Program-made: the position numbers and the translations under genes
Notes under the pieces: generated by a model
Databases searched by the model: none
Told to the model about the DNA's origin: nothing
Seen by the model: the letters and a program-made list of their open reading frames with translations, nothing else
Origin: a virus
Taxonomy: Duplodnaviria; Heunggongvirae; Uroviricota; Caudoviricetes
IMG/VR virus record: IMGVR_UViG_2526164619_000004
Span: 1 to 23,848 of that record
Direction: 5' to 3' (one strand)
DNA length: 23,848 nucleotides
In this document: positions 1 through 13,683 of the stretch, piece after piece
Numbering within the stretch: position 1 is the first letter of the stretch
How the letters are laid out: each line of letters begins with the position of its first letter

Positions 1-2
1 AG

Positions 3-116
3 ACCGTATGGTTGATTTTCGCTGGTTACTCCGTGGTTCTGGCCTTCGCGTTCATGGCGATGTTCAAATATAAACACGTTCGTGTCCCGACAGGCACACA
101 GACGGTTAGCCACTAA
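3..116 (+). CDS. nupG: 3' end of a membrane transporter gene, probably nucleoside permease (partial; start lies outside the window)
   Basis: Open frame from the window edge to TAA at 114-116 with a hydrophobic tail ...TVWLIFAGYSVVLAFAFMAMFKYKHVRVPTGTQTVSH. Convergent with a speC-like gene, as in the E. coli nupG-speC neighbourhood. Symbol assigned from synteny and memory, not from a search. Confidence 0.45.
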   Translation, partial: TVWLIFAGYSVVLAFAFMAMFKYKHVRVPTGTQTVSH

Positions 117-128
117 TTACGCAAAGAA

Positions 129-160
129 AAACGGGTCGCCAGAAGGTGACCCGTTTTTTT
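129..160. terminator. Bidirectional Rho-independent terminator between convergent genes
   Basis: Hairpin ACGGGTCGCC-AGAA-GGTGACCCGT at 131-154, flanked by an A-run upstream and T7 downstream (154-160), so it can terminate on either strand. Confidence 0.6.
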
Positions 161-164
161 ATTC

Positions 165-425
165 TTACTTCAACACATAACCGTACAACCGTTTCATGCC
201 ATCCGCATCGGTTTCGCTATAAACACCTTGCAGCTCCGGCGAAAATCCCGGCAACAAATTCACCCCTTCTTCCAGTGCAAGGAAATAACGTTGAACCGCC
301 CCACCCCAGACTTCCCCGGGTACCGCGCAAAGCACGCCAGGTGGATAAGGCAACGCCCCTTCTGCCGCAATTCGCCCTTCGGCATCACGAATCCGCACCA
401 ACTCCACTTCACCGCGAATATAAGG
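165..425 (-). pseudogene. speC: 3' fragment (about 85 codons) of an ornithine decarboxylase gene; the 5' ~1.9 kb is absent
   Basis: Minus-strand frame translates to ...YIRGEVELVRIRDAEGRIAAEGALPYPPGVLCAVPGEVWGGAVQRYFLALEEGVNLLPGFSPELQGVYSETDADGMKRLYGYVLK, a PLP-decarboxylase C-terminal domain as recalled for E. coli SpeC. The frame hits a stop at 480-482 and loses similarity at about 425-440, where IS sequence begins. The 425 end is approximate. Confidence 0.65.
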
Positions 426-1772
426 CAGTATGACTTTCCGTGAGACAGATGCTGGCCAACGTGGGATATTTAACGCGGGTTAACATCGTTGTCAGAGCCG
501 CATGGGTGAGCTGTTGCTACACCCCGGTATTTCCACCACGGAGGCCAGCATGAACAACAATAACACATTGTACGTCGGGTTAGATGTTCACAAAGAATCG
601 ATTACTGTCGCTTATGCTATCAATTCAGAACCTGTTGAACTGATGGGTAAAATTGGCACATCACCTACTGATATTCAGAATCTTTGTAAACGTCTCAGGT
701 CAAAGTCATCGCAGGTCAGTATCGTTTATGAAGCGTGGCCCTGTGGTTATGGACTTTATCGTCGGCTGGTGAAATCCGGTTTTGACTGCATGGTCTGCGC
801 CCCCTCACTTATCCCGAAAAAACCGGGGGAGCGGGTTAAAACCGATCGCCGTGATGCCATCAGACTTGTGCGTTCACTGCGTGCAGGAGATCTTTCTGCT
901 GTCTACGTACCCGGCATTGAAGATGAGGCATTCCGGGATTTGGCCCGGGCATGGGCATCTGCCCGCGATGATTTACGGCATGCAAGGCAACGTCTGAAAT
1001 CGTTTCTTCTGGTTCATGGGGTCCATTATGTCGGGCGAGCAGATTGGGGCCCTGCACACCGACGCTGGCTCAGCAAATACTCATTCGAAAGTCCCTGGCG
1101 ACAATTAGCTTTTGACGAACACCGTCGTACAATAGAAGACCGGCAGGCACAATGTGAACGGCTGGAATCCGCCCTGAAGGAGGCCGTTACCGAATGGAGG
1201 CTGTGCCCGGTAGTAGAGGCGCTGCAAGCCATGCGAGGGATTCAGTTTATTACTGCGGTTGGATTAATTTCTGAACTGGGTGATCTGACCCGTTTTGAAC
1301 ATCCACGACAACTGATGTCATGGTTTGGTATCACGCCATCAGAATATTCATCGGGTGGAAGCAGACATCAGGGCAGCATTACCAAAGCCGGAAACAGCTA
1401 TGCCAGAAAGCTATTGGTCGAGGCAGCGTGGAGTTACCGTCATCCGGCACGCATCAGTCCGGCAATACAAAAAAGGCAGGAAAATTTACCCCGCCCCGTC
1501 ATTGACAGAGCATGGGATGCTCAACTCAGGCTTTGTAAGAGGTATCGAAAACTTCAGGCCAAAGGAAAGAATGTCAATATTACAATTGTTGCTGTTGCAC
1601 GTGAGCTGGCGGTTTTATCTGGGATATGGGCCGAATAGCAATGTCTGTCGCACAACAACCACAATGTCACAAATAAAAATGAGAATAACCAGTTCCCTGA
1701 AGGCGACGTAGCCCGGTACAAGAGTAACCCACGTTAGCGCTTGGCGACGGCGGAACAAAGCTGATTCGCGAC
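426..1772 (+). mobile_element. IS110-family insertion sequence, about 1.35 kb
   Basis: Single DEDD-type transposase gene flanked by non-coding ends of about 125 bp (left) and about 135 bp (right), with no obvious terminal inverted repeats, as expected for this family. Left boundary inferred from loss of decarboxylase coding signal; right boundary inferred from the start of the IS66 terminal repeat (GTAAG at 1773). Both are approximate. Confidence 0.55.
550..1638 (+). CDS. IS110-family transposase/recombinase (DEDD RuvC-like N-domain plus Transposase_20-type C-domain)
   Basis: ATG at 550 preceded by GGAGG. N-terminus MNNNNTLYVGLDVHKESITVAY matches the family's first catalytic Asp motif. C-terminal region ...ITAVGLISELGDLTRFEHPRQLMSWFGITPSEYSSGGSRHQGSITKAGNSYARKLLVEAAW matches the conserved C-domain. 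The track ORF from 502 is an upstream extension without an RBS. Confidence 0.8.
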   Translation: MNNNNTLYVGLDVHKESITVAYAINSEPVELMGKIGTSPTDIQNLCKRLRSKSSQVSIVYEAWPCGYGLYRRLVKSGFDCMVCAPSLIPKKPGERVKTDRRDAIRLVRSLRAGDLSAVYVPGIEDEAFRDLARAWASARDDLRHARQRLKSFLLVHGVHYVGRADWGPAHRRWLSKYSFESPWRQLAFDEHRRTIEDRQAQCERLESALKEAVTEWRLCPVVEALQAMRGIQFITAVGLISELGDLTRFEHPRQLMSWFGITPSEYSSGGSRHQGSITKAGNSYARKLLVEAAWSYRHPARISPAIQKRQENLPRPVIDRAWDAQLRLCKRYRKLQAKGKNVNITIVAVARELAVLSGIWAE

Positions 1773-1967
1773 GTAAGAAAGTGGCAGGCTCATATGACGG
1801 ACCTCTGTAATGCGGTATCCAACCCGCGAATATCAGCGTGATTCACCGTCGGATTTACTGCTACGTCGCCCTCAGGGAATTATACCTAAAAAGAAAATCG
1901 TCAAAATTAGAGATTCCGGTTTGACACGGAAAGTCATATCAGCGTCAACGGAGCACCGTATTGACGC

Positions 1968-3558
1968 TTATTTATTGGTGAGTGCTACGTTCCATGGCAG
2001 GAGTTCGTCAACACGGTTGGAAGGCCATTCCGGCAGTACGCTCAGGATATAGCGCAGATACGCTTCCGGATCGATACCGTTCAGTCGGCAGGTGCCGATC
2101 AGCCCGTACAGTAGCGCACCACGCTCTCCACCGTGATCGCTGCCGAAGAACATAAAGTTTTTCTTTCCGAGACAGACTGCACGACGCGCTCTTTCCGCGG
2201 CATTATTATCCGCCTCAGCCAGACCATCATCACTGAAGTTGCACAACGCAACCCAGTGCTTCCTGATATACCGGAACGCATCTCTCAGACGGCATTTTTT
2301 CGATAACGTGTGTTCTTTCTCCTGCATCAGCTTATACAGAGAAGTCAGTAGCAGTTTACTCTGCATTTGCCTGACCGCCAGGCGTTCAGACACCGGCAAC
2401 CCGCGTATTTCGTGCTCGATGGCGTACAGCTCACCGATTAGTTTCAGGGCTTCTTCCGCTGTCGCGCTTTTGGTACTGATATATACATCGTGGACTTTGC
2501 GCCGCGCATGAGCCCAGCATCCTGCTTCCGTCAACGCGCCGCCTTCTCGTTCGGCACTGAACAGCCGATCGTAACCATTAAACGCATCTGCCTGCAGGAT
2601 ACCCCGGAAGGGACTAAGGTGCTGCTCCGGATGTTTACCCTGATGGTCCGGTGAGTAGGCGAACCAGACCGCCGGAGGCTCTGGCGAACCGGCATTCCTG
2701 TCATCCCGGACATACGTCCAGATATATCCTGTTTTCGCCTTCTTCCTGCCCGGTGCCAGCACTTTTACTGGTGTGTCATCAGTGTGAACTTTGCGGCTGT
2801 TCATCACATAACGGTACAGAGCATCATTCAGCGGCGTCATTAACTGGCAGCACGCGTCAACCCAGTTGGAGAGTAATGCACGGCTCAGTTCGACACCCTG
2901 ACGGGCAAAATTTCACTCTGGCGATACAGTGGCAGGTGTTCGCAGTATTTTCCCGTTAACACGCGGGCAAGTAACCCCGGGCCCGCGATACCACGCTCTA
3001 TCGGACGGGATGGTGCCGGTGCTTCAACGATGCAGTCACATTTTGTACAGGCTTTTTTTACCCGTCTGTGCGGATCACTTTCAGAGCGCTGCTCACCAGT
3101 TCCAGTTGTTCTGCGCTGACTTCCCCCAGATAATCCAGCTCACCGCCACACTCCGGGCAACAGCTTTCTTCTGGCTCCAGGCGATTTATTTCGCGGGGCA
3201 GATGCTCCGGTAACGGGCGACGATGACGAGACTGTCGCAACTGGCGGGGAACCTGCGGATCGTCTTCCCGCCCACTGTAACGATCACTGTCCTGTTCGCT
3301 TTGTTTCAGCAGGGCCTCAGCCTGTTCAACTTCACGACGCAGTTTTTCAGAACGGGTACCGAACAGCATCCGGCGCAGTTTTTCTATCTGAGCCCGCAGA
3401 TGTTCTATTTCCCGTTCATCTTCTTCGATCTTTTCTTCGGCGCGGGCCAGTGCAGAGCGCAGGAAGGCCTCCGTCTCTTCAACCAGACTCAGTTGCTGGT
3501 CTTTCTGACGGAGCTGGCATTCCAGTTCTGCAATGCGAATGAGGTATTTTTGATTCAT
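1968..3558 (-). pseudogene. tnpC: IS66-family transposase TnpC, disrupted (frame change plus internal loss)
   Basis: N-terminal 166-aa ORF (3058-3558; MNQKYLIRIAELE...CCPECGGELDY zinc-finger region) and C-terminal 290-aa ORF (1968-2840; ...DDTPVKVL...AGCWAHARRK...) lie in different frames. Only 217 bp separate them where about 240 bp of coding sequence is expected from comparison with copy 2. Confidence 0.75.
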
Positions 3559-3588
3559 GGCCGTTTTTATAATCCGGCCATGACATTT

Positions 3589-3939
3589 TTACAACATTGT
3601 CAGTGCGTTAAGGCGGGATGTTTTTGGCTGACGCCAGTCCAGTTTATCGAGGAGCATTGCCAGTTGCGAGCGGGTAATGGATACCTTGCCGTCACGCACA
3701 GCAGGCCAGATAAACTGGCCTTCCTCCAGGCGTCTGGTGAACAGGCACAGACCATCAGCATCAGCCCACAGGATTTTAATCATGTCACCCCGTCGGCCAC
3801 GGAAGATGAACAGGTGACCGGAGAAGGGATTATCATTCAGCACATGCTGTACCTGTTCACCCAGCCCGTTGAAAGACTTACGCATATCGGTTATCCCAGC
3901 AACGAGCCAGATGCGGGTGCCTGACGGGAGTGAGATCAT
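3589..3939 (-). CDS. tnpB: IS66-family Orf2 (TnpB) accessory protein
   Basis: 116-aa ORF MISLPSGTRIWLVAGITDMRKSFNGLGEQV...; start overlaps the orf1 stop as in IS66-family elements. Confidence 0.8.
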   Translation of the reverse strand: MISLPSGTRIWLVAGITDMRKSFNGLGEQVQHVLNDNPFSGHLFIFRGRRGDMIKILWADADGLCLFTRRLEEGQFIWPAVRDGKVSITRSQLAMLLDKLDWRQPKTSRLNALTML

Positions 3940-4355
3940 CGTCCCCTCCCGGTCAGTTCACGGATCAACACTGTGAGCAGCTCTGGTGAAGGATTTTCCA
4001 GCGTCATGTTACCGTGACGGAACTCCACCTTGCAGGAGCTGGCACTAACTGTAGTCTGAGTAGATAAAGACGGAGTAAGAGCAGCCACCGGTTCTTTCGG
4101 CTCATCCGGCGTTATCTCCACAGGTAATAATTCAACGCCAGTGTCAGAAGAGGTTGTTACCGGAAGACGCCGCGATATGCGCCCTTTGTTCTGCCAGAGC
4201 CTGAGCCATTTGAACAGCAGGTTATCATTGATATCGTGTTCCCGGGCAATACGGGCAACAGAGGCTCCTGGTTGTGAAGCCAGTTTAACCATTTGAAGTT
4301 TAAACTCATTTGAAAATGATCTGCGGGGTTCTGCAGATAATGCTTTCTGTTCCAT
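3936..4355 (-). CDS. tnpA: IS66-family Orf1 (TnpA), helix-turn-helix protein
   Basis: 139-aa ORF MEQKALSAEPRRSFSNEFKLQMVKLASQPGASVARIAREHDINDNLLFKWLR... at the expected position upstream of orf2. Confidence 0.75.
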   Translation of the reverse strand: MEQKALSAEPRRSFSNEFKLQMVKLASQPGASVARIAREHDINDNLLFKWLRLWQNKGRISRRLPVTTSSDTGVELLPVEITPDEPKEPVAALTPSLSTQTTVSASSCKVEFRHGNMTLENPSPELLTVLIRELTGRGR

Positions 4356-4570
4356 AACAGGTGTCCACTAGTTGAAAAGGTGGGCACCTACGTTACCAAT
4401 ACAGGCTTAATGGCTACATACGGCGGTCAGTTTACGCTTACATACGATACCTGCGTCATAATTGATTATTTCTCGTGGTTTGATGGCGTACACACATGTT
4501 GTGATAAACCTTATATAGATGATAATCATTATCATTTCGTGGGTCCTTTCCGGCGATCCGGGCCGTTACG

Positions 4571-4582
4571 GGGCGGCGACCT
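4571..4582 (+). other. cosN: 12-nt cohesive-end sequence of a lambda-like phage
   Basis: GGGCGGCGACCT followed by CGCGGGTTTTCGCTATTTATGAAAATTTTCC, identical as I recall it to the lambda left cohesive end. Upstream TTTCCGGCGATCCGGGCCGTTACG resembles the lambda right end (cosQ side). Confidence 0.75.
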
Positions 4583-4619
4583 CGCGGGTTTTCGCTATTT
4601 ATGAAAATTTTCCTGGATC

Positions 4620-4717
4620 CATGTCCGGTTTATCTTCAAGTTAACTATATGAAAAATATAAAAACAGGTCTTCTGTGAACCGGACATGAACAAAAAATAG
4701 ACATGTAAACCGGACAT
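4620..4717 (+). promoter_or_regulatory. cosB: three copies of an 11-mer terminase small-subunit binding element (R3 inverted relative to R2 and R1) around an AT-rich bend
   Basis: CATGTCCGGTT at 4620-4630 in forward orientation; its reverse complement AACCGGACATG at 4677-4687 and 4707-4717; AT-rich segment 4634-4670 between R3 and R2. Matches lambda cosB architecture, though the repeat sequence differs from what I recall for lambda R sites. Confidence 0.6.
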
Positions 4718-4765
4718 GACCGGTTTTGTTGTGATTGTGAGGTGAGAGTTTTTGCGAGGTGAGGA

Positions 4766-5275
4766 GTGGCTACGCAGACTGAAGTTGCCAGGCATTTAAG
4801 TCTGACCGATCGCCAGCTTCGCAGATTGCAGAAATTGCCGGGTGCCCCGATATCGAATAAGCGAGGGCAACTGGATCTGGATGCCTGGCGCGATTTTTGC
4901 ATATCGTATCTGAGAAGAAGTAAAAACGATGTGCCTGATGGCGATAGCGAAGACGACTATGAGGAAAAATTGCTTATTGCCAGATGGGAACTGACAGCAG
5001 AACAGGCTGTTACACAGCAGTTAAAAAATGAGGTGTCAAAAGGAAAACTTATTGACACCGGGTTCTGTATTTTTGCCCTCAGCAAGCTGGCAATGGCGTT
5101 ATCCAGTACTCTTGATTCCATCCCTTTATCCATGCAACGACAGTTTCCTGATTTAACACCACGCCATCTTGACCATCTGAAAACCCTTATTGCGAAGGGG
5201 GCAAATCAGTGTGCGCGGGCAGGGGATAAATTACCGGATTTACTCGATGAATATATCAGAGCAACAACTGAATAA
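4766..5275 (+). CDS. Nu1: Terminase small subunit (lambda Nu1 homologue)
   Basis: GTG start at 4766 preceded by GAGG. C-terminal half ...CIFALSKLAMALSSTLDSIPLSMQRQFPDLTPRHLDHLKTLIAKG...LPDLLDEYIRAT parallels lambda Nu1 (recalled); N-terminal HTH region diverged. Overlaps the A start as in lambda. Confidence 0.8.
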   Translation: MATQTEVARHLSLTDRQLRRLQKLPGAPISNKRGQLDLDAWRDFCISYLRRSKNDVPDGDSEDDYEEKLLIARWELTAEQAVTQQLKNEVSKGKLIDTGFCIFALSKLAMALSSTLDSIPLSMQRQFPDLTPRHLDHLKTLIAKGANQCARAGDKLPDLLDEYIRATTE

Positions 5276-7174
5276 TATGATGAGTGCTGTCACAACAGCA
5301 TTACAGCCCCTGATAAGGGCATTGCCGGTGACGCCAGTTGAATGGGCTGATCAAAATTATTATCTGCCTAAAGAATCTTCATATGGTGAGGGAGAATGGA
5401 AAACGCTGCCGTTCCAGGTCGCCATTATGAACTGTATGGGTAACGACCAGGTTCGCACGGTTAACCTGATTAAATCTGCCCGTGTTGGCTATACAAAGAT
5501 GTTGCTGGGGGTGGTCGGGTATTTTATTGAGCATAAATCACGAAACAGTCTGCTTTTTCAGTCCACGGATTCTGCCGCTGAAGATTTTATGAAGTCTCAC
5601 GTGGAGGCGACGATTCGGGATGTGCCATGCCTGAAAGACCTTTCCCCATGGCTGGGTCGTAAACATCGTGATAATACCCTCACGCTGAAACGTTTTTCAT
5701 CGGGCGTGGGCTTCTGGTGCCTGGGCGGGGCTGCCGCCAAAAACTACCGTGAAAAATCTGTCGATGTGGTCTGCTATGACGAACTCTCCTCGTTTGAACC
5801 GGATGTGGAAAAAGAAGGTTCGCCAACACTGCTTGGCGATAAACGTATTGAAGGTTCGGTATGGCCAAAATCCATACGCGGTTCAACGCCAAAAATCAAA
5901 GGCTCCTGCCAGATTGAAAAAGCCGCGAATGAATCTGCACATTTCATGCGGTTTTATGTTCCTTGCCCTCATTGCGGGGAGGAGCAGTATCTGAAATTTG
6001 GCGATGATGCGACGCCGTTTGGCCTGAAATGGGAGAAAGGCAAACCGGAAACGGTGTATTACCTGTGTGAACATAATGGTTGCGTGATCCATCAGTCGGA
6101 ACCTGACCAGACTGACGGACGCTGGATTTGTGACAATACCGGGATGTGGACCCGTGACGGTCTGACGTTTTTCAGTGCTTCGGGTAATGAAATTCCGCCG
6201 CCGCGCTCCATCACTTTCCATATATGGACGGCGTACAGTCCGTTTACCACCTGGGTACAGATAGTCTGTGACTGGCTGGATGCACTGAAAGATCCCAACG
6301 GCCTGAAAACCTTTGTGAACACCACGCTGGGCGAGACCTGGGAAGAAGCCGTGGGCGAAAAACTCGATCACCAGGTACTGATGGATAAGGTCGTGCATTA
6401 CACGGCGGCGGTACCTGCCCGGGTGGTTTATCTGACGGCGGGCATTGACTCGCAGCGAAACCGTTTTGAGATGTATGTCTGGGGATGGGCACCGGGAGAG
6501 GAAGCTTTTCTGGTGGATAAAATCATCATTATGGGCCGTCCCGATGAGGAAGAGACGCTGTTACGTGTGGATGCGGCGATCAACAAAAAATACTGCCATG
6601 CAGACGGAACCGAAATGACCATTTCCCGTGTCTGCTGGGACACCGGGGGGATCGATGGTGAAATTGTCTATCAGAGGTCAAAAAACACGGTGTTTTCCGG
6701 GTGCTGCCGGTAAAAGGCGCATCTGTCTATGGCAAGCCGGTGATCACCATGCCGAAAACCCGCAATCAGCGGGGCGTGTATCTGTGTGAAGTGGGGACGG
6801 ACACCGCAAAAGAAATTCTCTATGCCCGTATGAAAGCCGATCCCTCTCCTGCGGATGAAGCCACGTCGTATGCCATCCGTTTTCCTGATGATCCGGAGAT
6901 TTTTTCGCAGACAGAGGCGCAGCAACTGGTCGCGGAAGAGCTTGTGGAGAAGTGGGAAAAAGGAAAGATGCGTCTGCTGTGGGATAACAAAAAGCGGCGT
7001 AACGAAGCGCTGGACTGCCTGGTGTATGCCTACGCGGCATTACGTGTGTCCGTGCAACGCTGGCAGCTTGATCTGGCTGTACTGGCAAAATCCCGGGAAG
7101 AAGAGACGACCCGGCCAACCCTTAAAGAACTGGCAGCGAAGCTGTCCGGAGGAGTGAATGGTTACAGTCGCTGA
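5247..7174 (+). pseudogene. A: Terminase large subunit (lambda A homologue) with a frameshift about 6680
   Basis: Starts MNISEQQLNN... at 5247 and is strongly lambda-A-like throughout (...VEWADQNYYLPKESSYGEGEWKTLPFQ..., ...CPHCGEEQYLKFGD...). Frame 1 terminates at 6713; homology continues in another frame from about 6680 (KKHGVFRVLPVKGASVYGKPV...) to the stop at 7174. Confidence 0.85.
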
Positions 7175-7364
7175 ACTACAGGCGCTGCGTCAGGCACGCC
7201 TTGATTTATTAACCGGTAAACGGGTGGTGTCTGTCCAGAAAGATGGTCGCAGAATTGAATATACGGCGGCTTCTCTGGATGAGCTTAACCGGGCGATCAA
7301 TGATGCGGAGTCGGTACTGGGGACAACCCGACGTCGCCGTCGTCCGCTGGGAGTGAGGTTATGA
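7158..7364 (+). CDS. W: Head-tail joining protein (lambda W homologue)
   Basis: 68-aa ORF with GGAGG RBS; ...LLTGKRVVSVQKDGRRIEYTAASLDEL...RRRRRP matches lambda gpW (recalled). Confidence 0.85.
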   Translation: MVTVAELQALRQARLDLLTGKRVVSVQKDGRRIEYTAASLDELNRAINDAESVLGTTRRRRRPLGVRL

Positions 7365-8953
7365 AACGAACGCCTGTCCTGATTGATGTGAACGGCGTTC
7401 CGCTTCGTGAGAGTCTCAGCTACAACGGGGGCGGCGCAGGATTTGGCGGGCAAATGGCGGAGTGGTTGCCACCGGCGCAGAGTGCCGATGCAGCCCTGCT
7501 GCCTGCGTTGCGTCTGGGGAATGCCCGGGCAGATGATCTGGTGCGCAATAACGGGATAGCGGCCAATGCGGTGGCCCTGCATAAGGATCATATTGTCGGG
7601 CATATGTTTCTGATCAGCTACCGTCCGAACTGGCGCTGGCTGGGGATGCGGGAGACTGCGGCAAAAAGTTTTGTCGATGAGGTGGAGGCGGCCTGGTCGG
7701 AATACGCCGAAGGGATGTTTGGCGAGATCGACGTGGAAGAGAAACGCACGTTTACGGAATTTATTCGTGAAGGTGTGGGCGTTCATGCGTTTAACGGCGA
7801 AATCTTTGTGCAGCCGGTCTGGGATACGGAGAGCACGCAACTGTTTCGTACGCGTTTTAAAGCCGTGAGTCCGAAACGGGTGGACACGCCAGGACACGGT
7901 ATGGGGAACCGTTTTCTGCGGGCCGGTGTGGAGGTCGATCGATATGGTCGTGCCGTTGCGTACCATATCTGTGAGGATGATTTTCCGTTCTCTGGGAGTG
8001 GACGATGGGAACGGATCCCGCGTGAACTTCCCACCGGGCGTCCGGCCATGCTGCATATTTTCGAGCCGGTGGAGGACGGGCAGACCCGTGGGGCCAATCA
8101 GTTTTACAGCGTAATGGAACGGCTGAAGATGCTCGATTCCCTGCAGGCAACACAGCTTCAGTCGGCCATAGTGAAGGCGATGTATGCAGCGACGATTGAA
8201 AGTGACCTTGATACCGAAAAGGCCTTTGAATATATCGCCGGTGCGCCGCAGGGGCAGAAGGATAATCCGCTTATTAATATTCTGGATAAGTTCTCCACCT
8301 GGTATGACACGAATAGCGTGACGCTGGGCGGTGTCAAAATTCCGCACCTTTTCCCCGGTGATGATCTGAAACTTCAGACCGCGCAGGATTCAGACAATGG
8401 ATTTTCGGCGCTTGAACAGGCGCTGCTGCGGTATATCGCCGCCGGTCTTGGCGTTTCCTACGAACAGTTGTCCCGTGATTACTCGAAGGTCAGTTATTCA
8501 AGTGCCCGCGCATCCGCCAATGAGTCGTGGCGCTATTTTATGGGGCGGCTAAAATTTATTGCGTCCCGGCTGGCCACGCAGATGTTTTCCTGCTGGCTGG
8601 AAGAGGCACTTCTTCGGGGGATTATTCGTCCGCCACGGGCACGTTTTGATTTTTATCAGGCGCGATCAGCCTGGTCACGGGCTGAGTGGATTGGAGCCGG
8701 AAGAATGGCCATTGACGGGCTCAAGGAGGTTCAGGAATCAGTGATGCGCATTGAGGCCGGACTGAGCACGTATGAGAAAGAGCTGGCGCTGATGGGCGAG
8801 GATTATCAGGACATTTTCCGTCAGCAGGTCAGGGAATCTGCAGAGCGGGAAAAAGCCGGACTCTCACGTCCGGTGTGGATAGCGCAGGCGTATCAGCAGC
8901 AGATAGCGGAGAGTCGCAGGCCGGAAGAGGAGACAACACCACGTGAGACGTAA
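7361..8953 (+). CDS. B: Portal protein (lambda B homologue)
   Basis: 530-aa ORF at the B position and size, start overlapping the W stop; intact. Confidence 0.9.
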   Translation: MKRTPVLIDVNGVPLRESLSYNGGGAGFGGQMAEWLPPAQSADAALLPALRLGNARADDLVRNNGIAANAVALHKDHIVGHMFLISYRPNWRWLGMRETAAKSFVDEVEAAWSEYAEGMFGEIDVEEKRTFTEFIREGVGVHAFNGEIFVQPVWDTESTQLFRTRFKAVSPKRVDTPGHGMGNRFLRAGVEVDRYGRAVAYHICEDDFPFSGSGRWERIPRELPTGRPAMLHIFEPVEDGQTRGANQFYSVMERLKMLDSLQATQLQSAIVKAMYAATIESDLDTEKAFEYIAGAPQGQKDNPLINILDKFSTWYDTNSVTLGGVKIPHLFPGDDLKLQTAQDSDNGFSALEQALLRYIAAGLGVSYEQLSRDYSKVSYSSARASANESWRYFMGRLKFIASRLATQMFSCWLEEALLRGIIRPPRARFDFYQARSAWSRAEWIGAGRMAIDGLKEVQESVMRIEAGLSTYEKELALMGEDYQDIFRQQVRESAEREKAGLSRPVWIAQAYQQQIAESRRPEEETTPRET

Positions 8954-10448
8954 TCTTTCACACATTATTGCCGCAGCATTCAATGAACCGCTGCTTCTGG
9001 AGCCCGCCTATGCGCGGGTTTTCTTTTGCGCGCTCGGGCGCGAGATGGGCGCAGCAAGTCTTTCGGTACCACAACAGCAGGTACAGCTTGATGCTCCCGG
9101 AATGCTGGCTGAAACGGACGAGTACATGGCCGGAGGTAAACGACCGGCCCGTGTTTACCGGGTGGTGAACGGTATTGCGGTACTGCCGGTGACCGGCACG
9201 CTGGTGCACCGGCTGGGGGGGATGCGGCCATTTTCCGGAATGACTGGCTATGACGGCATTGTCGCCTGTCTTCAGCAGGCAATGGCAGATAGCCAGGTGC
9301 GGGGCATACTGCTGGACATTGACAGTCCGGGCGGGCAGGCCGCCGGCGCGTTTGACTGCGCTGACATGATTTACCGCCTCCGTCAGCAGAAGCCGGTCTG
9401 GGCACTGTGCAATGACACGGCCTGTTCTGCAGCCATGCTGCTGGCGTCGGCCTGCTCCCGACGGCTGGTTACCCAGACATCCCGTATCGGCTCCATTGGC
9501 GTGATGATGAGCCATGTCAGCTATGCCGGTCATCTGGCGCAGGCCGGTGTGGATATCACGCTGATTTATGCCGGGGCGCACAAGGTGGATGGCAATCAGT
9601 TTGAAGCGTTGCCGGCAGAGGTTCGCCAGGACATGCAGCAGCGGATTGATGCGGCGCACCGGATGTTTGCCGAAAAAGTGGCGATGTATACCGGGTTGTC
9701 TGTGGATGCGGTCACGGGAACAGAGGCCGCCGTTTTTGAAGGTCAGTCCGGCATTGAGGCCGGGCTGGCGGATGAATTAATCAATGCGTCGGATGCCATC
9801 AGTGTGATGGCCACGGCGCTGAACAGTAATGTCAGAGGAGGCACTATGCCGCAATTAACTGCAACGGAAGCCGCCGTGCAGGAGAACCAGCGAGTGATGG
9901 GGATCCTGACATGCCAGGAAGCGAAAGGACGTGAACAGCTTGCCACGATGCTGGCAGGGCAACAGGGCATGAGCGTTGAACAGGCCCGGGCGATTCTGGC
10001 CGCGGCGGCACCGCAGCAGCCGGTGGCATCCGCGCAGAGTGAAGCCGATCGCATTATGGCGTGTGAAGAAGCGAACGGTCGTGAACAACTGGCAGCAACG
10101 CTGGCGGCGATGCCTGAGATGACGGTGGAAAAAGCCCGCCCGATCCTGGCTGCTTCACCGCAGGCGAATGCCGGACCATCACTCCGTGATCAGATCATGG
10201 CACTGGATGAGGCAAAAGGGGCTGAGGCGCAGGCTGAACAGCTGGCTGCCTGCCCGGGAATGACTGTGGAGAGCGCCCGGGCTGTGCTGGCTGCGGGATC
10301 AGGTAAGGCAGAACCGGTCTCTGCATCCACAACCGCCCTGTTTGAACATTTCATGGCGAACCATTCACCGGCTGCGGACCAGGGGGGCGTGTCACAGGCG
10401 GCAGAAGACGGTGATGCGGACGTGAAAATGCTCATGGCCATGCCATGA
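8943..10448 (+). CDS. C: Head maturation protease / scaffold (lambda C homologue, S49 peptidase-like), 501 aa
   Basis: GTG start overlapping the B stop. ...HIIAAAFNEPLLLEPAYARVFFCAL... and ...GIAVLPVTGTLVHR...SGMTGYDGI...LLDIDSPGGQAAGAFDCADMI... parallel lambda gpC (recalled). Longer than lambda C because of a triplicated C-terminal module. Confidence 0.85.
   Translation: MRRNLSHIIAAAFNEPLLLEPAYARVFFCALGREMGAASLSVPQQQVQLDAPGMLAETDEYMAGGKRPARVYRVVNGIAVLPVTGTLVHRLGGMRPFSGMTGYDGIVACLQQAMADSQVRGILLDIDSPGGQAAGAFDCADMIYRLRQQKPVWALCNDTACSAAMLLASACSRRLVTQTSRIGSIGVMMSHVSYAGHLAQAGVDITLIYAGAHKVDGNQFEALPAEVRQDMQQRIDAAHRMFAEKVAMYTGLSVDAVTGTEAAVFEGQSGIEAGLADELINASDAISVMATALNSNVRGGTMPQLTATEAAVQENQRVMGILTCQEAKGREQLATMLAGQQGMSVEQARAILAAAAPQQPVASAQSEADRIMACEEANGREQLAATLAAMPEMTVEKARPILAASPQANAGPSLRDQIMALDEAKGAEAQAEQLAACPGMTVESARAVLAAGSGKAEPVSASTTALFEHFMANHSPAADQGGVSQAAEDGDADVKMLMAMP
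9846..10448 (+). CDS. Nu3: Candidate scaffolding protein from an in-frame internal start (lambda Nu3 analogue)
   Basis: Strong SD AGAGGAGG at 9834-9841 followed by ATG at 9846, in frame within C, mirroring the lambda C/Nu3 nested arrangement. Inferred from sequence only. Confidence 0.4.
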   Translation: MPQLTATEAAVQENQRVMGILTCQEAKGREQLATMLAGQQGMSVEQARAILAAAAPQQPVASAQSEADRIMACEEANGREQLAATLAAMPEMTVEKARPILAASPQANAGPSLRDQIMALDEAKGAEAQAEQLAACPGMTVESARAVLAAGSGKAEPVSASTTALFEHFMANHSPAADQGGVSQAAEDGDADVKMLMAMP

Positions 10449-10484
10449 AGTCAGTGCTGAACATCAATACGAGGTTTTAACAAT

Positions 10485-10832
10485 ATGGTGACGAAAACCA
10501 TCACTGAACAGCGTGCGGAAGTACGTATTTTTGCCGGTAATGATCCGGCTCACACCGCCACAGGCAGCAGCGGGATTTCCTCGGCAACACCGGCACTGAC
10601 ACCCCTGATGCTGGATGGGGCCACCGGGAAACTGGTGGTCTGGGACGGACAGAAAGCCGGTAGTGCGGTTGGCATACTGGTACTGCCGCTTGAAGGCACA
10701 GAGGCGGTGCTGACGTATTACAAGTCGGGGACCTTTGCAACGGAGGCAATCCGCTGGCCTGACAGTGTGGATGAACACAAAAAGGCAAATGCCTTTGCCG
10801 GCACAGCCCTGAGTCACGCGGCGCTGCCGTAA
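10485..10832 (+). CDS. D: Head decoration protein (lambda D homologue)
   Basis: 115-aa ORF; ...DPAHTATGSSGIS...TPLMLD...KLVVWDG...AVGILV...YYKSGTF...KANAFAGTA parallels lambda gpD (recalled). Confidence 0.85.
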   Translation: MVTKTITEQRAEVRIFAGNDPAHTATGSSGISSATPALTPLMLDGATGKLVVWDGQKAGSAVGILVLPLEGTEAVLTYYKSGTFATEAIRWPDSVDEHKKANAFAGTALSHAALP

Positions 10833-10889
10833 CACGTTATCAGGCCACCGCGTTGGCCTGACTGATTTCTTAATGAAAGGAACTGATTT

Positions 10890-11919
10890 ATGGGATTGTT
10901 TACGACCCGCCAGTTGCTCGGTTATACCGAACAAAAAGTTAAATTCCGTGCGCTGTTTCTGGAGCTGTTTTTCCGCCGTACGGTGAATTTCCACACCGAA
11001 GAGGTGATGCTGGACAAAATTACCGGAAAAACGCCGGTGGCGGCCTATGTCTCCCCGATCGTTGAAGGAAAAGTGCTTCGCCATCGCGGTGGTGAAACCC
11101 GCGTGTTACGTCCGGGCTACGTCAAGCCCAAACACGAATTTAATTACCAGCAGGCGGTTGAGCGCCTTCCTGGTGAAGATCCGGCTCAGCTGAACGACCC
11201 GGCCTACCCTCGTCTGCGTATCATTACCGATAACCTCAAACAGGAAGAGCACGCCATTGTCCAGGTGGAAGAAATGCAGGCGGTGAATGCCGTGCTGTAT
11301 GGCAAATACACCATGGAAGGGGATCAGTTTGATACTGTCGAGGTGGATTTCGGGCGCTCTGAAGGAAATAACATTGAGCAGGCTGACGGTAAAAAATGGT
11401 CTGAGCAGGACCGTGATACGTTTGATCCGACGCATGATATTGACCTCTACTGCGATCAGGCCAGCGGCCTTGTGAATATCGCCATTATGGACGGTACGGT
11501 CTGGCGTCTGCTGAATGGCTTCTAAGCTGTTCCGCGAAAAACTGGATACCCGTCGCGGCTCAAATTCACAACTCGAAACGGCAGTGAAAGACCTGGGGGC
11601 GGTGGTGTCCTTCAAGGGGTATTACTGCGATCTGGCCATTGTGGTGGCGAAAACGTCTTATGTGGCAGAGGACGGTACCGAAAAACGTTATCTGCCGGAG
11701 GGCACACTGGTCCTGGGGAATACGGCAGCAGAGGGCATTCGTTGCTATGGTGCCATTCAGGATGCGCAGGCGTTGTCCGAAGGTGTGGTGGCCTCTTCCC
11801 GTTATCCGAAACACTGGCTGACTGTGGGCGATCCGGCCCGTGAATTCACCATGACGCAGTCCGCACCGCTGATGGTGCTGCCGGATCCGGATGAGTTTGT
11901 GGTGGTACAGGTGAAATAA
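10890..11919 (+). pseudogene. E: Major capsid protein (lambda E homologue) with a +1 frameshift about 11520
   Basis: AAGGA RBS and ATG at 10890. The first 211 aa are lambda-E-like (...YVSPIVEGKVLRHRGG...PGYVKPKHE...VEEMQAV...KYTMEGDQFD...) and end at TAA 11523-11525. Homology continues in the next frame from 11524 (KLFREKLDTRRGSNSQLETAVKDLG... to ...DPDEFVVVQVK). Confidence 0.85.
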
Positions 11920-11927
11920 TCCGTGAG

Positions 11928-11956
11928 CGGGGGCGAAATGCCCCCGTGTCTTTTTT
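11928..11956 (+). terminator. Candidate intrinsic terminator or attenuator downstream of E
   Basis: CGGGGGC-GAAAT-GCCCCCG hairpin followed by TGTCTTTTTT. Confidence 0.45.
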
Positions 11957-11970
11957 CACAGGAGGCTGAG

Positions 11971-12354
11971 ATGGCAACAAAAGAAGAAAATCTGAATCGT
12001 CTTCGTCAACTGGCTAGCCTGCTGGGGCGCGAGGCGGATATGTCGGGGAGTGCTGCGGATATTGCTCAACGTGTGTCTGAGTGGGAAGAGGAGCTTGCTG
12101 TTTCCCCGGAGGGCATTATGCACTCTGATGAGAGCGGGGCTGATCAAAATCACACAGACGATGGTGAGCAGTTGAACAACACGGATGCTACGGATGATGT
12201 TAAAGCGGTCCGTGTGCGGAAATGCCTGCATGTGATGGGGTATTGCCCGGAGACAGGCCGTCCCGTTGAACTGACGTACCGGGGCATGCGTGTTATGGTG
12301 CCATCACCACTGGCGACAGCCATGATACAGCACGGAACGGCTGAGCATGTGTGA
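11971..12354 (+). CDS. FI: DNA packaging / head assembly protein at the lambda FI position
   Basis: AGGAGG RBS and ATG at 11971. Acidic 127-aa product in the FI slot between E and FII. Assignment is positional; my recall of lambda FI is too weak to claim sequence similarity. The track ORF from 11923 is an unsupported extension. Confidence 0.55.
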   Translation: MATKEENLNRLRQLASLLGREADMSGSAADIAQRVSEWEEELAVSPEGIMHSDESGADQNHTDDGEQLNNTDATDDVKAVRVRKCLHVMGYCPETGRPVELTYRGMRVMVPSPLATAMIQHGTAEHV

Positions 12355-12700
12355 TTTTCAGAATGCCTTTGATGCTGCCCTTGCCGGGGTGGACAGCACG
12401 ATTGTTGAAGTGATGGGGCTCTGTGCGCAGTTCACCTCGGGAGCACAGCGTGGAAGCGAAGTTCAGGGGGTTTTTGACGATCCGGAGTCGCTGGGTTTTG
12501 CCGGTGGCGGGGTCCGTATTGAAGGAAGCAGCCCGTCATTATTTGTGCGGACGGATACGGTGCGTGCCGTGCGGCGTGGTGACACGCTGACCATTAACGG
12601 CGAGATGTTCTGGGTGGATCGTATTTCTCCGGATGACGGGGGAAGCTGTTATCTCTGGCTCAACCGTGGGCAACCACCCGCTGTTAACCGGCGACGATAA
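12347..12700 (+). CDS. FII: Head-tail connector protein (lambda FII homologue)
   Basis: 117-aa ORF; MCDFQNAFDAA...GVFDDPES...GGGVRIEGSSPSLFVRTD...RRGDTLTI...FWVDRISPDDGGSCYLWLNRGQPPAVNRRR parallels lambda gpFII (recalled). Confidence 0.85.
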   Translation: MCDFQNAFDAALAGVDSTIVEVMGLCAQFTSGAQRGSEVQGVFDDPESLGFAGGGVRIEGSSPSLFVRTDTVRAVRRGDTLTINGEMFWVDRISPDDGGSCYLWLNRGQPPAVNRRR

Positions 12701-12715
12701 ACGCAGGGTGAAATT

Positions 12716-13291
12716 ATGGCGATAAAAGGGCTTGATCAGGCGATTGATAATCTGAGCCGGGTTCGTAAAAACGCCATTCCGGCGGCTTCAGCAATGACGA
12801 TTAACCGCGTGGCCACAACGGCGATTAATCAGTCTTCGTCACAGGTTGCCCAGGAAACCAGGGTGAGACGGAAACTGGTAAAGGAACGGTCCAGACTGAA
12901 ACGGGCGACAGTCAGAAATCCGAATGCCAGAATTATCGTTAACCGCGGTGATCTCCCTGTGATTAAGCTGGGGATCAGAATGCTGGGACGTCGTCCGAAC
13001 AGCATACTCAAAGCCGGTCAGCATCGTTATCAGTGGGCATTTATCCAGCGATTAAATAATGGGCGCTGGCATGTTATGCAACGTCTTCCCCAGGCCAGAT
13101 ATGAGGAGGGCAATGACGACAAGGGAAGGAAAAAGCGTAATCGCCTTCCCATTCAGGTGGTGAAAATCCCGATGGCGGCCCCACTGAAACAGGCATTTGA
13201 TGAGAATGTTGACCGTATCCGGCGTGAACGCCTGCCTAAAGAACTGGCATACGCGCTGAAACAACAACTGAGGATTGCGATAAAACGATGA
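12716..13291 (+). CDS. Z: Tail completion protein (lambda Z homologue)
   Basis: 191-aa ORF; MAIKGLDQAIDNLSR...RRKLVKERSRLKRATV...RGDLPVIKLG...NGRWHVMQR...VKIPMAAPL...RRERLPKEL parallels lambda gpZ (recalled). Confidence 0.85.
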   Translation: MAIKGLDQAIDNLSRVRKNAIPAASAMTINRVATTAINQSSSQVAQETRVRRKLVKERSRLKRATVRNPNARIIVNRGDLPVIKLGIRMLGRRPNSILKAGQHRYQWAFIQRLNNGRWHVMQRLPQARYEEGNDDKGRKKRNRLPIQVVKIPMAAPLKQAFDENVDRIRRERLPKELAYALKQQLRIAIKR

Positions 13292-13683
13292 AACACACTG
13301 ACATTCGTGCCGCAGTGCTGGATGCACTCGAGCAGCATGAACACGGGGCGACGCTGTTTGATGGTCGCCCCGTTGTTTTTGACGAAGAGAATTTTCCTGC
13401 GATCGCGGTTTATCTGACGGATGCAGAGTATACCGGTGAAGAGCTGGATGCAGATACCTGGCGGGCCACGCTGCATATTGAGGTGTTTTTACCGGCACAG
13501 GTACTGGATTCAGAGCTTGATCAGTGGATGGAAAGCCGGATTTACCCGGCGATGACTGCGATCCCGGCACTGGCAGGACTGATTACCACGATGGTTACGC
13601 AGGGCTATGAGTATCGTCGTGATGACGATATGGCGTTATGGAGTTCTGCAGATCTGACTTATTCCATTACATACGAGATGTGA
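13288..13683 (+). CDS. U: Tail terminator protein (lambda U homologue)
   Basis: 131-aa ORF; [28 protein letters not shown]...[29 protein letters not shown]...[23 protein letters not shown] is near-identical in pattern to lambda gpU (recalled). Confidence 0.9.

What the first reader, a model, noticed from the sequence alone, without database searches (positions are those of the whole stretch)
426..1772. IS110-family element: candidate bridge (guide) RNA in a non-coding end
The transposase has the DEDD plus Transposase_20 architecture of the IS110 family. Members of this family are known to encode a structured guide RNA in a non-coding end that pairs with both target and donor DNA. Here the ends are about 125 bp (426-549) and about 135 bp (1639-1772), and neither has coding potential. 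The right end holds repeated GCGACGT-containing segments (1700-1713, 1741-1753, 1765-1777). I cannot tell from sequence alone which end carries the RNA, or whether one is intact.
Basis: partly seen in the sequence, partly recalled or inferred. Interest (0 to 1): 0.55.

Follow-up and report, generated by a model that had tools for sequence, protein, structure and literature searches.

The report
ISSso6 bridge RNA, right end
This is a decayed copy of the known insertion sequence ISSso6, and its intact RNA guide for choosing insertion sites lies in the right-hand non-coding end, mostly outside the coordinates given; this kind of RNA was already described in 2024.

Summary
The element is ISSso6, an IS110-family element of the IS1111 group. 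It spans window 423-1940, not 426-1772. The ends are fixed by a perfect subterminal inverted repeat (430-442 / 1925-1937), an empty speC site and an uninterrupted ISEc47.

The guide RNA is in the right end, core 1690-1882. A covariance model built only from 36 relatives hits 1688-1884 on the + strand (193.9 bits) and nothing in the left end. Across 40 relatives, 22 of 41 base pairs show compensatory changes and 97.4% of cells are paired.

An internal loop carries two guides that co-vary with the flanking DNA:
- ACGUAAG (1771-1777) matches the left target plus the core AG.

Together they specify ACGTA|AGCGCTAA. Observed ISSso6 sites read GTA|AGCG(C/T)T.

A conserved AUAUCAG (1830-1836) matches the right end plus core, so it is a likely donor guide. 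The second donor guide is unresolved.

This copy's transposase is dead (G63W, Y219C, frameshift near 1610), and its two flanks come from different loci.

Durrant et al. 2024 already list ISSso6 with a bridge RNA detected in the right end. The finding is correct in kind but already known.

The parts
423..1940 (+). ISSso6 (IS110 family, IS1111 group), 1518 bp in this copy; intact copies are 1520 bp
   Evidence: >=99% identical to copies that NCBI's annotation pipeline names 'IS110-like element ISSso6'. Boundaries come from the empty speC site, from the uninterrupted ISEc47 match that starts at 1941, and from junctions shared across independent copies.
423..429 (+). 7-nt left terminal extension AGGCAGT. 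The first two bases, AG, equal the target core.
   Evidence: AG[G/T/A]CAGT is conserved in about 45 relatives. An 'AG' is present at both junctions but only once in the empty site.
430..442 (+). Left subterminal inverted repeat ATGACTTTCCGTG
   Evidence: (pair I3).
426..431 (+). CAGTAT, putative -10 box of a promoter formed at the circle junction (inferred)
   Evidence: In a joined right-end/left-end circle it lies 17 nt downstream of the right-end TTGACA. It is invariant in relatives, and reads CATAAT in the most distant ones. The precedent is ISEc11 Pjunc, cited in PMC11187229.
451..549 (+). Conserved left-end (5'-UTR) structure. Helix 451-462 / 538-549 buries the transposase Shine-Dalgarno GGAGG (540-544). 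An inner hairpin contains the invariant motifs CGCGGGTTA and CAGAGCCGC.
   Evidence: RNAalifold on 26 left ends predicts 21 pairs, 7 with compensatory changes; the G455-C545 position is A-U in 12 of 26. Folding the window sequence alone gives only z = -2.2.
550..1674 (+). Transposase pseudogene. The ORF 550-1638 is truncated by a 1-nt deletion near 1610; the intact stop corresponds to 1672-1674. It also carries G63W and Y219C.
   Evidence: G63, Y219 and F356/I357/W358/D359 are invariant in 14 homologues.
1690..1882 (+). Bridge/seek RNA core (the long form)
   Evidence: Covariance model R1, built without the window, hits 1688-1884 on + at 193.9 bits, E 2e-49, full length; the minus strand scores 28.9 bits. 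The single-sequence fold has z = -5.3. The consensus structure has 97.4% of cells paired and 22 of 41 pairs compensatory.
1690..1712 (+). P1 5' strand. It pairs with 1860-1882 in two blocks: 1690-1700/1872-1882 and 1702-1712/1860-1870.
   Evidence: 22 pairs, 14 with changes on both sides. Seen in the window as the 20-nt inverted repeat I1.
1722..1732 (+). P3 (1722-1725 / 1788-1791) and P4 (1729-1732 / 1781-1784), 5' strands
   Evidence: helices 3 and 4, each with 2 compensatory pairs.
1735..1742 (+). Right target guide UAGCGCUU, on the 5' side of the target-binding internal loop. It pairs with the target top strand at positions -1 and +1 to +7.
   Evidence: Flank positions +2 to +7 pair with alignment columns 121 to 116 in 84-100% of elements (z 5.4-7.7), and position -1 pairs with column 123 in 83%. 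Guides pair with their own flank at 7.35 of 8 positions against 4.44 of 8 for non-cognate flanks; 0 of 5000 permutations reach this.
1744..1769 (+). P5 stem-loop capping the target-binding loop (1744-1747 / 1766-1769)
   Evidence: helix 5, with 3 of 4 pairs compensatory.
1771..1777 (+). Left target guide ACGUAAG, on the 3' side of the loop. It is identical to the top strand of the left flank (-5 to -1) plus the core AG, so it would pair with the bottom strand. Positions -3 to -1 are supported statistically.
   Evidence: Flank positions -1, -2 and -3 are identical to columns 164, 163 and 162 in 93, 93 and 69% of elements. Own flank 2.54 of 3 against 1.27 of 3 for non-cognate; 0 of 5000 permutations.
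1812..1827 (+). P6 hairpin GCGG-UAUCCAAC-CCGC with a near-invariant loop
   Evidence: C-G changes to U-A in 8 sequences.
1830..1838 (+). Left donor guide AUAUCAG (identical to right end ATATC plus core AG), followed by C1837, a handshake-like base that tracks right-flank position +3
   Evidence: AUAUCAG is conserved in 39 of 40 relatives. The exception, L070, has right end ...ATAGC and RNA AUCGCAG. Column 228 is identical to flank position +3 in 85% of elements, z 3.6.
1856..1862 (+). Candidate right donor guide UACUGCU, complementary to left-end AG-(G)-CAGTA with left-end position 3 bulged. TENTATIVE: it lies in the multiloop and overlaps the top 3 bp of P1.
   Evidence: Sequence inspection of alignment A2. 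Left-end position 3 is the main variable base of AGNCAGT. There is no covariation support.
1921..1926 (+). TTGACA, putative -35 box of the junction promoter
   Evidence: TTGAC is present in 39 of 40 relatives (L070 differs). The spacing to the left-end CAGTAT across the junction is 17 nt.
1925..1940 (+). Right subterminal inverted repeat CACGGAAAGTCAT (1925-1937) plus the 3-nt extension ATC (1938-1940)
165..422 (-). Left flank: 3' fragment of speC (ornithine decarboxylase)
1941..4441 (-). Right flank: ISEc47 (IS66 family) lacking the first 3 bp (GTA) of its terminal inverted repeat

Best explanation
Window 423-1940 is a copy of ISSso6, an IS1111-group member of the IS110 family.

Its 3' non-coding region (1675-1940) encodes, on the + strand, a bridge RNA / seekRNA of about 190 nt (core 1690-1882). 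The RNA is closed by a 22-bp stem, P1.

Target recognition. Inside the RNA, a stem / internal loop / stem-loop module (P3-P4, loop, P5) is the target-binding loop.
[quoted passage not shown] - Together they specify 5'-ACGTA|AGCGCTAA-3', with insertion immediately 5' of the AG and no target duplication.
- The order, right guide 5' of left guide, is the reverse of IS621. Siddiquee et al. report this order for IS1111 elements.

Donor recognition. A second region (1792-1859) carries AUAUCAG, identical to the right-end terminus plus AG. It would hold the donor, meaning the joined right-end/left-end circle. The next base tracks target position +3, which resembles the 'handshake' pairing described for IS621.

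Expression. Excision to a circle would juxtapose the right-end TTGACA and the left-end CAGTAT into a junction promoter. That promoter would drive the transposase mRNA, and the RNA would be processed from its 3' part.

Shown here: the structure, its strand, and guide-target co-variation.
Inferred: expression, processing, protein binding, the junction promoter and the donor pairing.

This particular copy has an intact RNA but a dead transposase, so it could move only with a transposase supplied by another copy.
For: Identity and ends:
- establish the element's identity and boundaries.

Structure:
- The single-sequence fold has z = -5.26.
- RNAalifold predicts 45 pairs, 22 of them compensatory.
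- 97.4% of cells are paired, against 87.7% in shuffles and 36-41% when the partners are slid.
- A covariance model built without the window gives 193.9 bits on + and 28.9 bits on -, with no hit in the left end.
- G-U pairs are common in P1 and P3 on the + strand. On the other strand these would be C-A mismatches.

Guides:
- The column-by-flank scan gives one antiparallel and one parallel diagonal.
- Cognate flanks score far above non-cognate ones, with 0 of 5000 permutations reaching the observed value.
- ISSso6 sites fit the guides: speC ATA|AGCGCTAT, ISEc47 GTA|AGCGTCAA, nhaA-hokC GTA|AGCGCTAA, SopA GTA|AGCGCTGG and pSB4_227 GTA|AGCGTTAA.

Literature:
- Durrant et al. Supplementary Table 5 lists 'ISSso6 | RE | IS1111'.
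- They note that IS1111 donor-binding nucleotides often lie in a multiloop.
Against: - There is no expression, processing or binding data for this RNA.
- No sigma-70-like promoter lies upstream of the RNA on the + strand of the integrated copy.
- Rfam 15 has no matching family, and the published bridge-RNA models could not be run.
- The right donor guide is not identified. The best candidate overlaps P1 and shows no covariation.
- Helix P2 and the alternative GACGG/CCGUC stem are invariant, so the fold of the donor domain is unresolved.
- Two relatives (L008, L040) sit in sites that mismatch their right guide at +2 and +4.
- The LDG-donor pairing rests on one co-varying lineage (L070).
Confidence: 0.9

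Rival explanations
1. The conserved 3' structure is a cis-acting mRNA element, such as a stabiliser, terminator or translational regulator of the transposase message. On this view it is not a trans-acting guide.
For: It lies directly after the transposase stop codon and begins with a long GC-rich stem. No separate promoter was found for it.
Against: No U-tract follows the stem, and no + strand terminator was called there. A stabiliser would not need two loop segments that change in step with the DNA flanking each relative's insertion site. The homologous region of ISEc11 is required in cis or in trans and co-purifies with its transposase (PMC11187229).
Confidence: 0.04
2. The inverted repeats act at the DNA level, as a cruciform or single-stranded DNA site recognised by the transposase, rather than as RNA.
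For: IS1111 elements do use DNA inverted repeats at their ends. The structure is nearly palindromic in places, and the minus strand still scores 28.9 bits.
Against: The asymmetry between strands is large: 193.9 against 28.9 bits. Many pairs are G-U on the + strand (for example 27 of 40 at columns 70/273, 19 of 40 at 84/259 and 18 of 40 at 106/179). These would be A-C mismatches on the other strand and weak G-T pairs in DNA. The guide logic matches experimentally shown RNA guides in the same family.
Confidence: 0.03
3. The whole element here is an inert relic. The RNA sequence survives only because the copy is young, and it has no function at this locus.
For: The transposase carries G63W and Y219C at invariant positions, plus a frameshift. 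The flanks are chimeric, speC on the left and ISEc47 on the right. This implies a rearrangement after insertion.
Against: This is compatible with the main explanation rather than opposed to it. The RNA core differs at no position from three of the four other ISSso6 copies compared. It could therefore still be produced and used by transposase from sister copies. The family-level function does not depend on this copy.
Confidence: 0.5

Closest known systems
ISSso6 as catalogued (ISfinder name used by NCBI's annotation pipeline; Durrant et al. 2024, Supplementary Table 5: bridge RNA detected in the right end, IS1111 group)
   Same: It is >=99% identical in DNA to annotated ISSso6 copies in Shigella and E. 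coli. The RNA is in the right end, as that table lists.
   Different: This copy has a dead transposase and chimeric flanks. I found no published guide assignment or target motif for ISSso6 in the papers searched, so the guide map given here is my own derivation.
ISEc11 / ISPa11 / ISKpn4 seekRNA (IS1111 family; Siddiquee et al. 2024, PMC11187229)
   Same: The non-coding region lies downstream of the transposase gene, and the element has subterminal inverted repeats with a 7-nt left extension. There is no target duplication. Two short target matches overlap at the insertion point, with the top-strand match 5' of the bottom-strand match. A junction promoter is formed in the circle.
   Different: The element, target and RNA sequence differ: ISEc11 is 1443 bp and targets GTGAAAATACTG. 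Rfam gives no hit for this RNA. The ISSso6 non-coding region is longer (266 nt). Its donor-like AUAUCAG segment and the base tracking position +3 are features that paper does not describe.
IS621 bridge RNA (IS110 group; Durrant et al. 2024; Hiraizumi et al. 2024)
   Same: One RNA carries an internal-loop module whose two sides pair with opposite strands of the target and overlap at a 2-nt core. A second region matches the donor.
   Different: The ISSso6 RNA is in the right end, not the left end. The guide order is reversed, with the right guide 5' of the left guide. The core is AG (AA is tolerated in relatives) rather than CT. The inverted repeats are long. The donor-binding nucleotides appear to sit in or near a multiloop rather than a clean second internal loop.
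[quoted passage not shown]
   Same: The commonest ISSso6 site lies 3 bp inside the terminal inverted repeat of another mobile element: ISEc47, IS66 family, GTA|AGCGTCAACGG.
   Different: ISSso6 also uses single-copy chromosomal sites that carry the same short motif (speC, the nhaA-hokC spacer, a SopA pseudogene). The preference for the ISEc47 end may simply reflect how many copies of that motif exist.

Membership tests
IS110 family, IS1111 group | DEDD (RuvC-like) N-terminal domain plus the PF02371 C-terminal domain in a single transposase | tested here: met
   PF01548 at E 1.1e-10 and PF02371 at E 7.7e-24. Homologues are 51-95% identical.
IS110 family, IS1111 group | Subterminal inverted repeats with short terminal extensions (7 nt on the left) | tested here: met
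   13-nt perfect repeats at 430-442 and 1925-1937, a 7-nt left extension AGGCAGT and a 3-nt right extension ATC. All are conserved in relatives.
IS110 family, IS1111 group | The longer non-coding region lies downstream of the transposase gene | tested here: met
   The left end is 127 nt and the 3' non-coding region 266 nt. In relatives the 3' region is 260-310 nt.
IS110 family, IS1111 group | Sequence-specific insertion without target-site duplication | tested here: met
   The empty speC site ...AATATAAGCGCTATG compared with the two junctions shows only the AG shared. Seven sites share GTA|AGCG(C/T)T.
IS110 family, IS1111 group | A circular intermediate with a junction promoter | not testable with these tools
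   Only the sequence elements are seen: right-end TTGACA, a 17-nt spacer and left-end CAGTAT, both conserved.
Bridge RNA / seekRNA | A conserved structured non-coding RNA in the long non-coding end, on the transposase strand | tested here: met
   The covariance model, built independently of the window, scores 193.9 bits.
Bridge RNA / seekRNA | Two guide segments in one loop that pair with opposite strands of the target and overlap at the core | tested here: met
   Co-variation of the loop columns with flank positions, the permutation test and the fit to ISSso6 sites.
Bridge RNA / seekRNA | Guide segments that recognise the donor (the element's own ends) | tested here: inconclusive
   AUAUCAG equals the right-end terminus plus core, with one co-varying lineage (L070). 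The second donor guide is not identified.
Bridge RNA / seekRNA | The RNA is expressed, binds the recombinase and is required for transposition | not testable with these tools
   No transcript or biochemical data are available. This has been shown for ISEc11, ISPa11, ISKpn4 and IS621 in the literature.
Bridge RNA / seekRNA | A match to a published covariance model | not testable with these tools
   Rfam 15 holds no such family, and there was no hit at E <= 1. The published result for ISSso6 (right end) is taken from Supplementary Table 5 of PMC11208160.
ISSso6 (specific element) | Near-identity over the full length to the reference element | tested here: met
   99.0-99.6% identity over query positions 22-1561 to many annotated ISSso6 copies. 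Compared with four of them, the window copy alone differs at six positions: four base substitutions and two 1-nt deletions.

The most novel reading that the evidence does not exclude
The short left end (423-549) may be more than a spacer. It could be a second conserved RNA module of this IS1111 lineage. It contains a long-range helix that hides the transposase ribosome-binding site and an inner hairpin with invariant motifs (CGCGGGTTA, CAGAGCCGC). This module might couple transposase translation to the circle-junction transcript. Alternatively it might supply the donor-recognition function that I could not find in the right-end RNA.
Probability: 0.15. Interest if true: 0.5.

Novelty: already known. 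Interest (0 to 1): 0.27.

Why it matters
RNA-guided IS110/IS1111 recombinases are being developed as genome-editing tools, so each well-mapped natural guide is a useful data point.

Here the guide map of a common Shigella and E. coli element can be read directly: target ACGTA|AGCGCTAA, reversed guide order, a donor-matching AUAUCAG and a base that tracks target position +3. The relatives collected here give a covariation-backed structure for one IS1111 lineage.

For annotating this window, the practical message is smaller. It is a decayed ISSso6 copy that joins a broken speC gene to an ISEc47 element in a prophage. That marks a past rearrangement, not a new system.

Tried and rejected
- Rfam 15 scan of 1-3500 at E <= 1 gave only a chance mir-84 match. 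There is no bridge-RNA family in Rfam.
- Left end as the site of the RNA: rejected. Covariance model R1 finds nothing there, and the single-sequence fold has only z = -2.2.
- The 'GCGACGT repeats' as a functional repeat family: rejected. They are helix strands, and the motif count in the window is at chance level.
- ISEc11 as the identity of the element: rejected. ISEc11 is 1443 bp and has a different target.
- ISSso6 as a dedicated hunter of IS66-family ends: softened. The nhaA-hokC site is single-copy chromosomal DNA, and the pSB4_227 site has no IS66 gene beside it in the incomplete PLSDB gene table.
- Search for the right donor guide by covariation: failed, because the left-end terminus is almost invariant. 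The apparent correlations with left-end positions 3 and 6 and right-end positions -14 and -21 look like shared ancestry, not pairing.
- P2 against the alternative GACGG/CCGUC stem: both are invariant, so they cannot be told apart.
- Literature search for GTAAGCG as an IS66 end motif gave nothing useful.
Full report
WHAT IS THERE

The ORF at 550-1638 has the DEDD_Tnp_IS110 and Transposase_20 domains. The surrounding DNA is 99.0-99.6% identical to many Shigella and E. coli copies that NCBI's annotation pipeline names 'IS110-like element ISSso6'.

The element is longer than the finding states. A perfect 14-nt inverted repeat lies at 429-442 and 1925-1938. Comparison of independent copies places the ends at 423 and 1940.

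Two uninterrupted sites confirm these ends:
- The empty speC site reads ...CGCGAATATAAGCGCTATGCG.... The left junction in the window is ...AATATA|AGGCAGTATGAC. The right junction of the speC insertion in strain FDAARGOS_944 is GTCATATC|AGCGCTATGCG. Only the AG is shared, so there is no target duplication.
- Megablast of the whole window against E. coli genomes starts matching exactly at 1941. The uninterrupted ISEc47 reads ...TTTGTA|AGCGTCAACGG.

The element therefore has a 7-nt left extension (AGGCAGT), 13-nt subterminal repeats and a 3-nt right extension (ATC). This is the IS1111-group layout described by Siddiquee et al. (PMC11187229). The same ends, AG[G/T/A]CAGT-ATGACT... and ...AGTCAT-ATC, recur in about 45 relatives from Burkholderiales, other Proteobacteria and metagenome bins that share 51-81% protein identity.

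THE OBSERVATION, CHECKED

The left end (423-549) is close to what was described. The 'right end 1639-1772' is not a real unit.

In intact copies the transposase is 375 aa and stops at the position equal to window 1672-1674. The window copy has lost one base near 1610. Its ORF therefore ends early at 1638. The true 3' non-coding region is 1675-1940, which is 266 nt.

The three GCGACGK segments exist, and a fourth copy lies on the other strand at 1863-1869. They are strands of RNA helices, not a repeat family. Across the whole window the motif occurs at chance frequency.

THE RNA

The 3' non-coding region folds far better than shuffled controls (z = -5.26 for 1685-1890).

I aligned the region from 40 elements. 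The core, equal to window 1690-1882, is strongly conserved down to 51% protein identity, but it contains a few hypervariable segments.
- RNAalifold predicts 45 pairs, 22 of them with compensatory changes.
- Counting the 41 pairs of the six RNA helices gives 97.4% of cells paired. Column shuffles give 87.7%, and sliding the partners gives 36-41%. No shuffle out of 500 reached any of the observed measures.
- Helix P1 (1690-1712 with 1860-1882) alone has 14 pairs with changes on both sides.

A covariance model built from 36 relatives, without the window, matches window 1688-1884 on the + strand. The match is full length at 193.9 bits (E 2e-49). The minus strand scores 28.9 bits. Nothing else in the window reaches significance: the one other match listed (20257-20294, 4 bits, E 2.1) is at chance level, and neither it nor any other lies in the left end.

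Frequent G-U pairs on the + strand fit an RNA transcribed in the transposase direction.

Rfam 15 has no family for it.

THE GUIDES

Between helices P4 (1729-1732 / 1781-1784) and P5 (1744-1747 / 1766-1769) lies an internal loop. Both of its sides are hypervariable among relatives.

I scanned every RNA column against every flank and end position in 37 non-redundant elements. Two clean diagonals appeared:
- Right-flank positions +2 to +7 are Watson-Crick or wobble complementary to columns 121 to 116 in 84-100% of elements (z 5.4-7.7). Left-flank position -1 is complementary to column 123 in 83%.
- Left-flank positions -1, -2 and -3 are identical to columns 164, 163 and 162 in 93, 93 and 69% of elements. 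Identity to the top strand means pairing with the bottom strand.

A permutation test on 26 elements with both flanks available agrees:
- The 5'-side guide pairs with its own flank at 7.35 of 8 positions, against 4.44 of 8 for other elements' flanks.
- The 3'-side guide matches at 2.54 of 3 positions, against 1.27 of 3.
- In both cases 0 of 5000 permutations reach the observed value.

In window coordinates:
- The right target guide is UAGCGCUU (1735-1742).
- The left target guide is ACGUAAG (1771-1777), and its last two bases are the AG core.

Together they specify ACGTA|AGCGCTAA. The ISSso6 sites I could read fit this:
- speC: ATA|AGCGCTAT
- ISEc47 end: GTA|AGCGTCAA
- nhaA-hokC spacer: GTA|AGCGCTAA
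- a SopA pseudogene: GTA|AGCGCTGG
- pSB4_227: GTA|AGCGTTAA

The two matches overlap at the insertion point, and the top-strand match lies 5' of the bottom-strand match. Siddiquee et al. report exactly this for IS1111 seekRNAs. It is the reverse of the order Durrant et al. describe for IS621.

THE DONOR SIDE

The remaining conserved single-stranded stretch contains AUAUCAG (1830-1836). This is identical to the right-end terminus ATATC plus the core AG.

It is conserved in 39 of 40 relatives. The single exception, L070, has a right end ending AGC instead of ATC, and AUCGCAG in the RNA.

The next base, C1837, is identical to right-flank position +3 in 85% of elements, with C, U and A all seen (z 3.6). 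This resembles the handshake pairing described for IS621. That comparison rests on my own knowledge of Hiraizumi et al. 2024; I did not check it in the text.

I could not pin down the second donor guide. UACUGCU (1856-1862) is complementary to the left-end AG-CAGTA if left-end position 3 is bulged. Position 3 is indeed the main variable base of that terminus. However, the segment overlaps the top of P1 and shows no covariation.

Durrant et al. remark that IS1111 donor-binding nucleotides often lie in a multiloop. That matches where these segments sit.

EXPRESSION (INFERRED)

No sigma-70-like promoter precedes the RNA in the integrated copy.

Joining the right end to the left end would place the right-end TTGACA (1921-1926; TTGAC is present in 39 of the 40 relatives, L070 differing) 17 nt upstream of the left-end CAGTAT (426-431). 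The most distant relatives have CATAAT there instead. This is a junction promoter of the kind shown for ISEc11 (cited). The RNA would then be processed from the 3' part of the transposase transcript, as Siddiquee et al. propose.

THIS COPY

Compared with four other ISSso6 copies, the window copy alone carries several changes:
- G63W, beside the catalytic glutamate in the invariant YEAGPCG motif.
- Y219C, at an invariant tyrosine.
- A frameshift after residue 354, which removes the invariant F356/I357/W358/D359 (invariance).

The RNA core differs at no position from three of those four copies; the fourth, L002, has C for T at 1816.

The flanks do not belong together. The left flank is the 3' fragment of speC. 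The right flank is ISEc47 lacking the GTA of its terminal repeat, inside a prophage. The simplest reading is homologous recombination between a speC::ISSso6 copy and an ISEc47::ISSso6 copy. That reading is an inference.

COMPARISON WITH WHAT IS KNOWN

The mechanism class was established in 2024 for IS621 (bridge RNA) and for ISEc11, ISPa11 and ISKpn4 (seekRNA).

ISSso6 itself appears in Supplementary Table 5 of Durrant et al. as 'Detected Bridge RNA End: RE; IS1111'. Siddiquee et al. include its protein in their phylogeny set.

I found no paper that gives the ISSso6 guide map or target. That part is my own derivation, but it adds detail and no new principle.

VERDICT

The coordinates and the 'repeat' reading need correction. 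The finding is already known at the level that matters, so interest is low to moderate.

Noticed in passing
window 550-1674: The transposase of this copy is a pseudogene. It carries G63W (736 T for G), Y219C (1205-1206 GC for AT) and a 1-nt deletion near 1610 that replaces the conserved C-terminal tail. A second 1-nt deletion lies in the A-run just after the ancestral stop codon, near 1674.
   Followed up: yes
window 165-422 (left flank) and 1941-4441 (right flank): The two flanks come from different loci. On the left is the 3' fragment of speC (ornithine decarboxylase). On the right is ISEc47 (IS66 family) without the first GTA of its terminal repeat. This implies recombination between two ISSso6 copies. 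The rest of speC was not looked for in the window. A broken speC would fit the ornithine-decarboxylase-negative phenotype of most Shigella (my own knowledge).
   Followed up: partly
L086 598-621 and 3106-3129; window 1941 onward: The commonest ISSso6 site in E. coli and Shigella records lies 3 bp inside the terminal inverted repeat of ISEc47 (GTA|AGCGTCAACGG). Most BLAST hits extend through this flank. This resembles IS4321/IS5075 targeting Tn21 ends. However, single-copy chromosomal sites with the same short motif are also used.
   Followed up: partly
window 451-462 with 538-549, and 474-502: The short left end is conserved across the family. A long-range helix buries the transposase Shine-Dalgarno GGAGG (540-544), with a G-C to A-U swap in 12 of 26 sequences. 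An inner hairpin carries the invariant motifs CGCGGGTTA and CAGAGCCGC. Its function is unknown. It could be translational control or a protein-binding site.
   Followed up: partly
window 1921-1926 and 426-431: The right-end TTGACA and left-end CAGTAT would form a promoter with a 17-nt spacer in a circularised element. Both boxes are conserved in relatives, and the -10 box reads CATAAT in the most distant ones.
   Followed up: partly
L090 2869 onward (plasmid pCFSAN029787_01): The right end of one ISSso6 copy is followed directly by AGCGCTTGGCGACGGCGG..., which is the ISSso6 non-coding region from window position 1737 onward. An ISSso6 end therefore abuts the DNA that encodes the right target guide of another copy. 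The guide is nearly palindromic (UUAGCGCUU), so its own gene resembles the target. The left flank there is unrelated, so a later rearrangement is likely.
   Followed up: no
L001 4543-5111 (E. coli FDAARGOS_944): In the strain that shares the speC left junction, the complete ISSso6 is followed by a partial second copy. That copy starts inside the transposase gene, at a position equal to window ~1386, and ends at the speC right junction. This is a nested or rearranged pair.
   Followed up: no
L008 and L040 (Paraburkholderia): Two relatives sit at sites whose first four right-flank bases (AGGC) mismatch their right guide (..ACAU) at +2 and +4, while the distal part of the guide fits. AGGC equals the first four bases of their own left end. 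This is unexplained.
   Followed up: no
relatives L014, L016, L058 and others: In many relatives the first two bases of the right flank are AA rather than AG. The left guide and the left end keep AG. The second core position therefore seems to tolerate an A/G difference between donor and target, which would be a G-T wobble on the bottom strand.
   Followed up: partly
window about 4450-23848: The rest of the window matches a lambdoid prophage of O111-type E. coli at about 93% identity. Annotated genes include the terminase large subunit, portal protein, tail tape-measure protein and a SASA-family esterase. It was not examined further.
   Followed up: no
window 1-150: The 3' end of nupG on the + strand is followed by a hairpin-plus-T-run sequence at about 131-158, read by eye as a terminator and not scanned. 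It lies just upstream of the convergent speC fragment.
   Followed up: no
one search hit statistics: 69 E. coli records carry a relative that is 90-95% identical to ISSso6, and a Salmonella protein cluster is 95% identical (P0001). I did not check whether these variants carry different guides.
   Followed up: no
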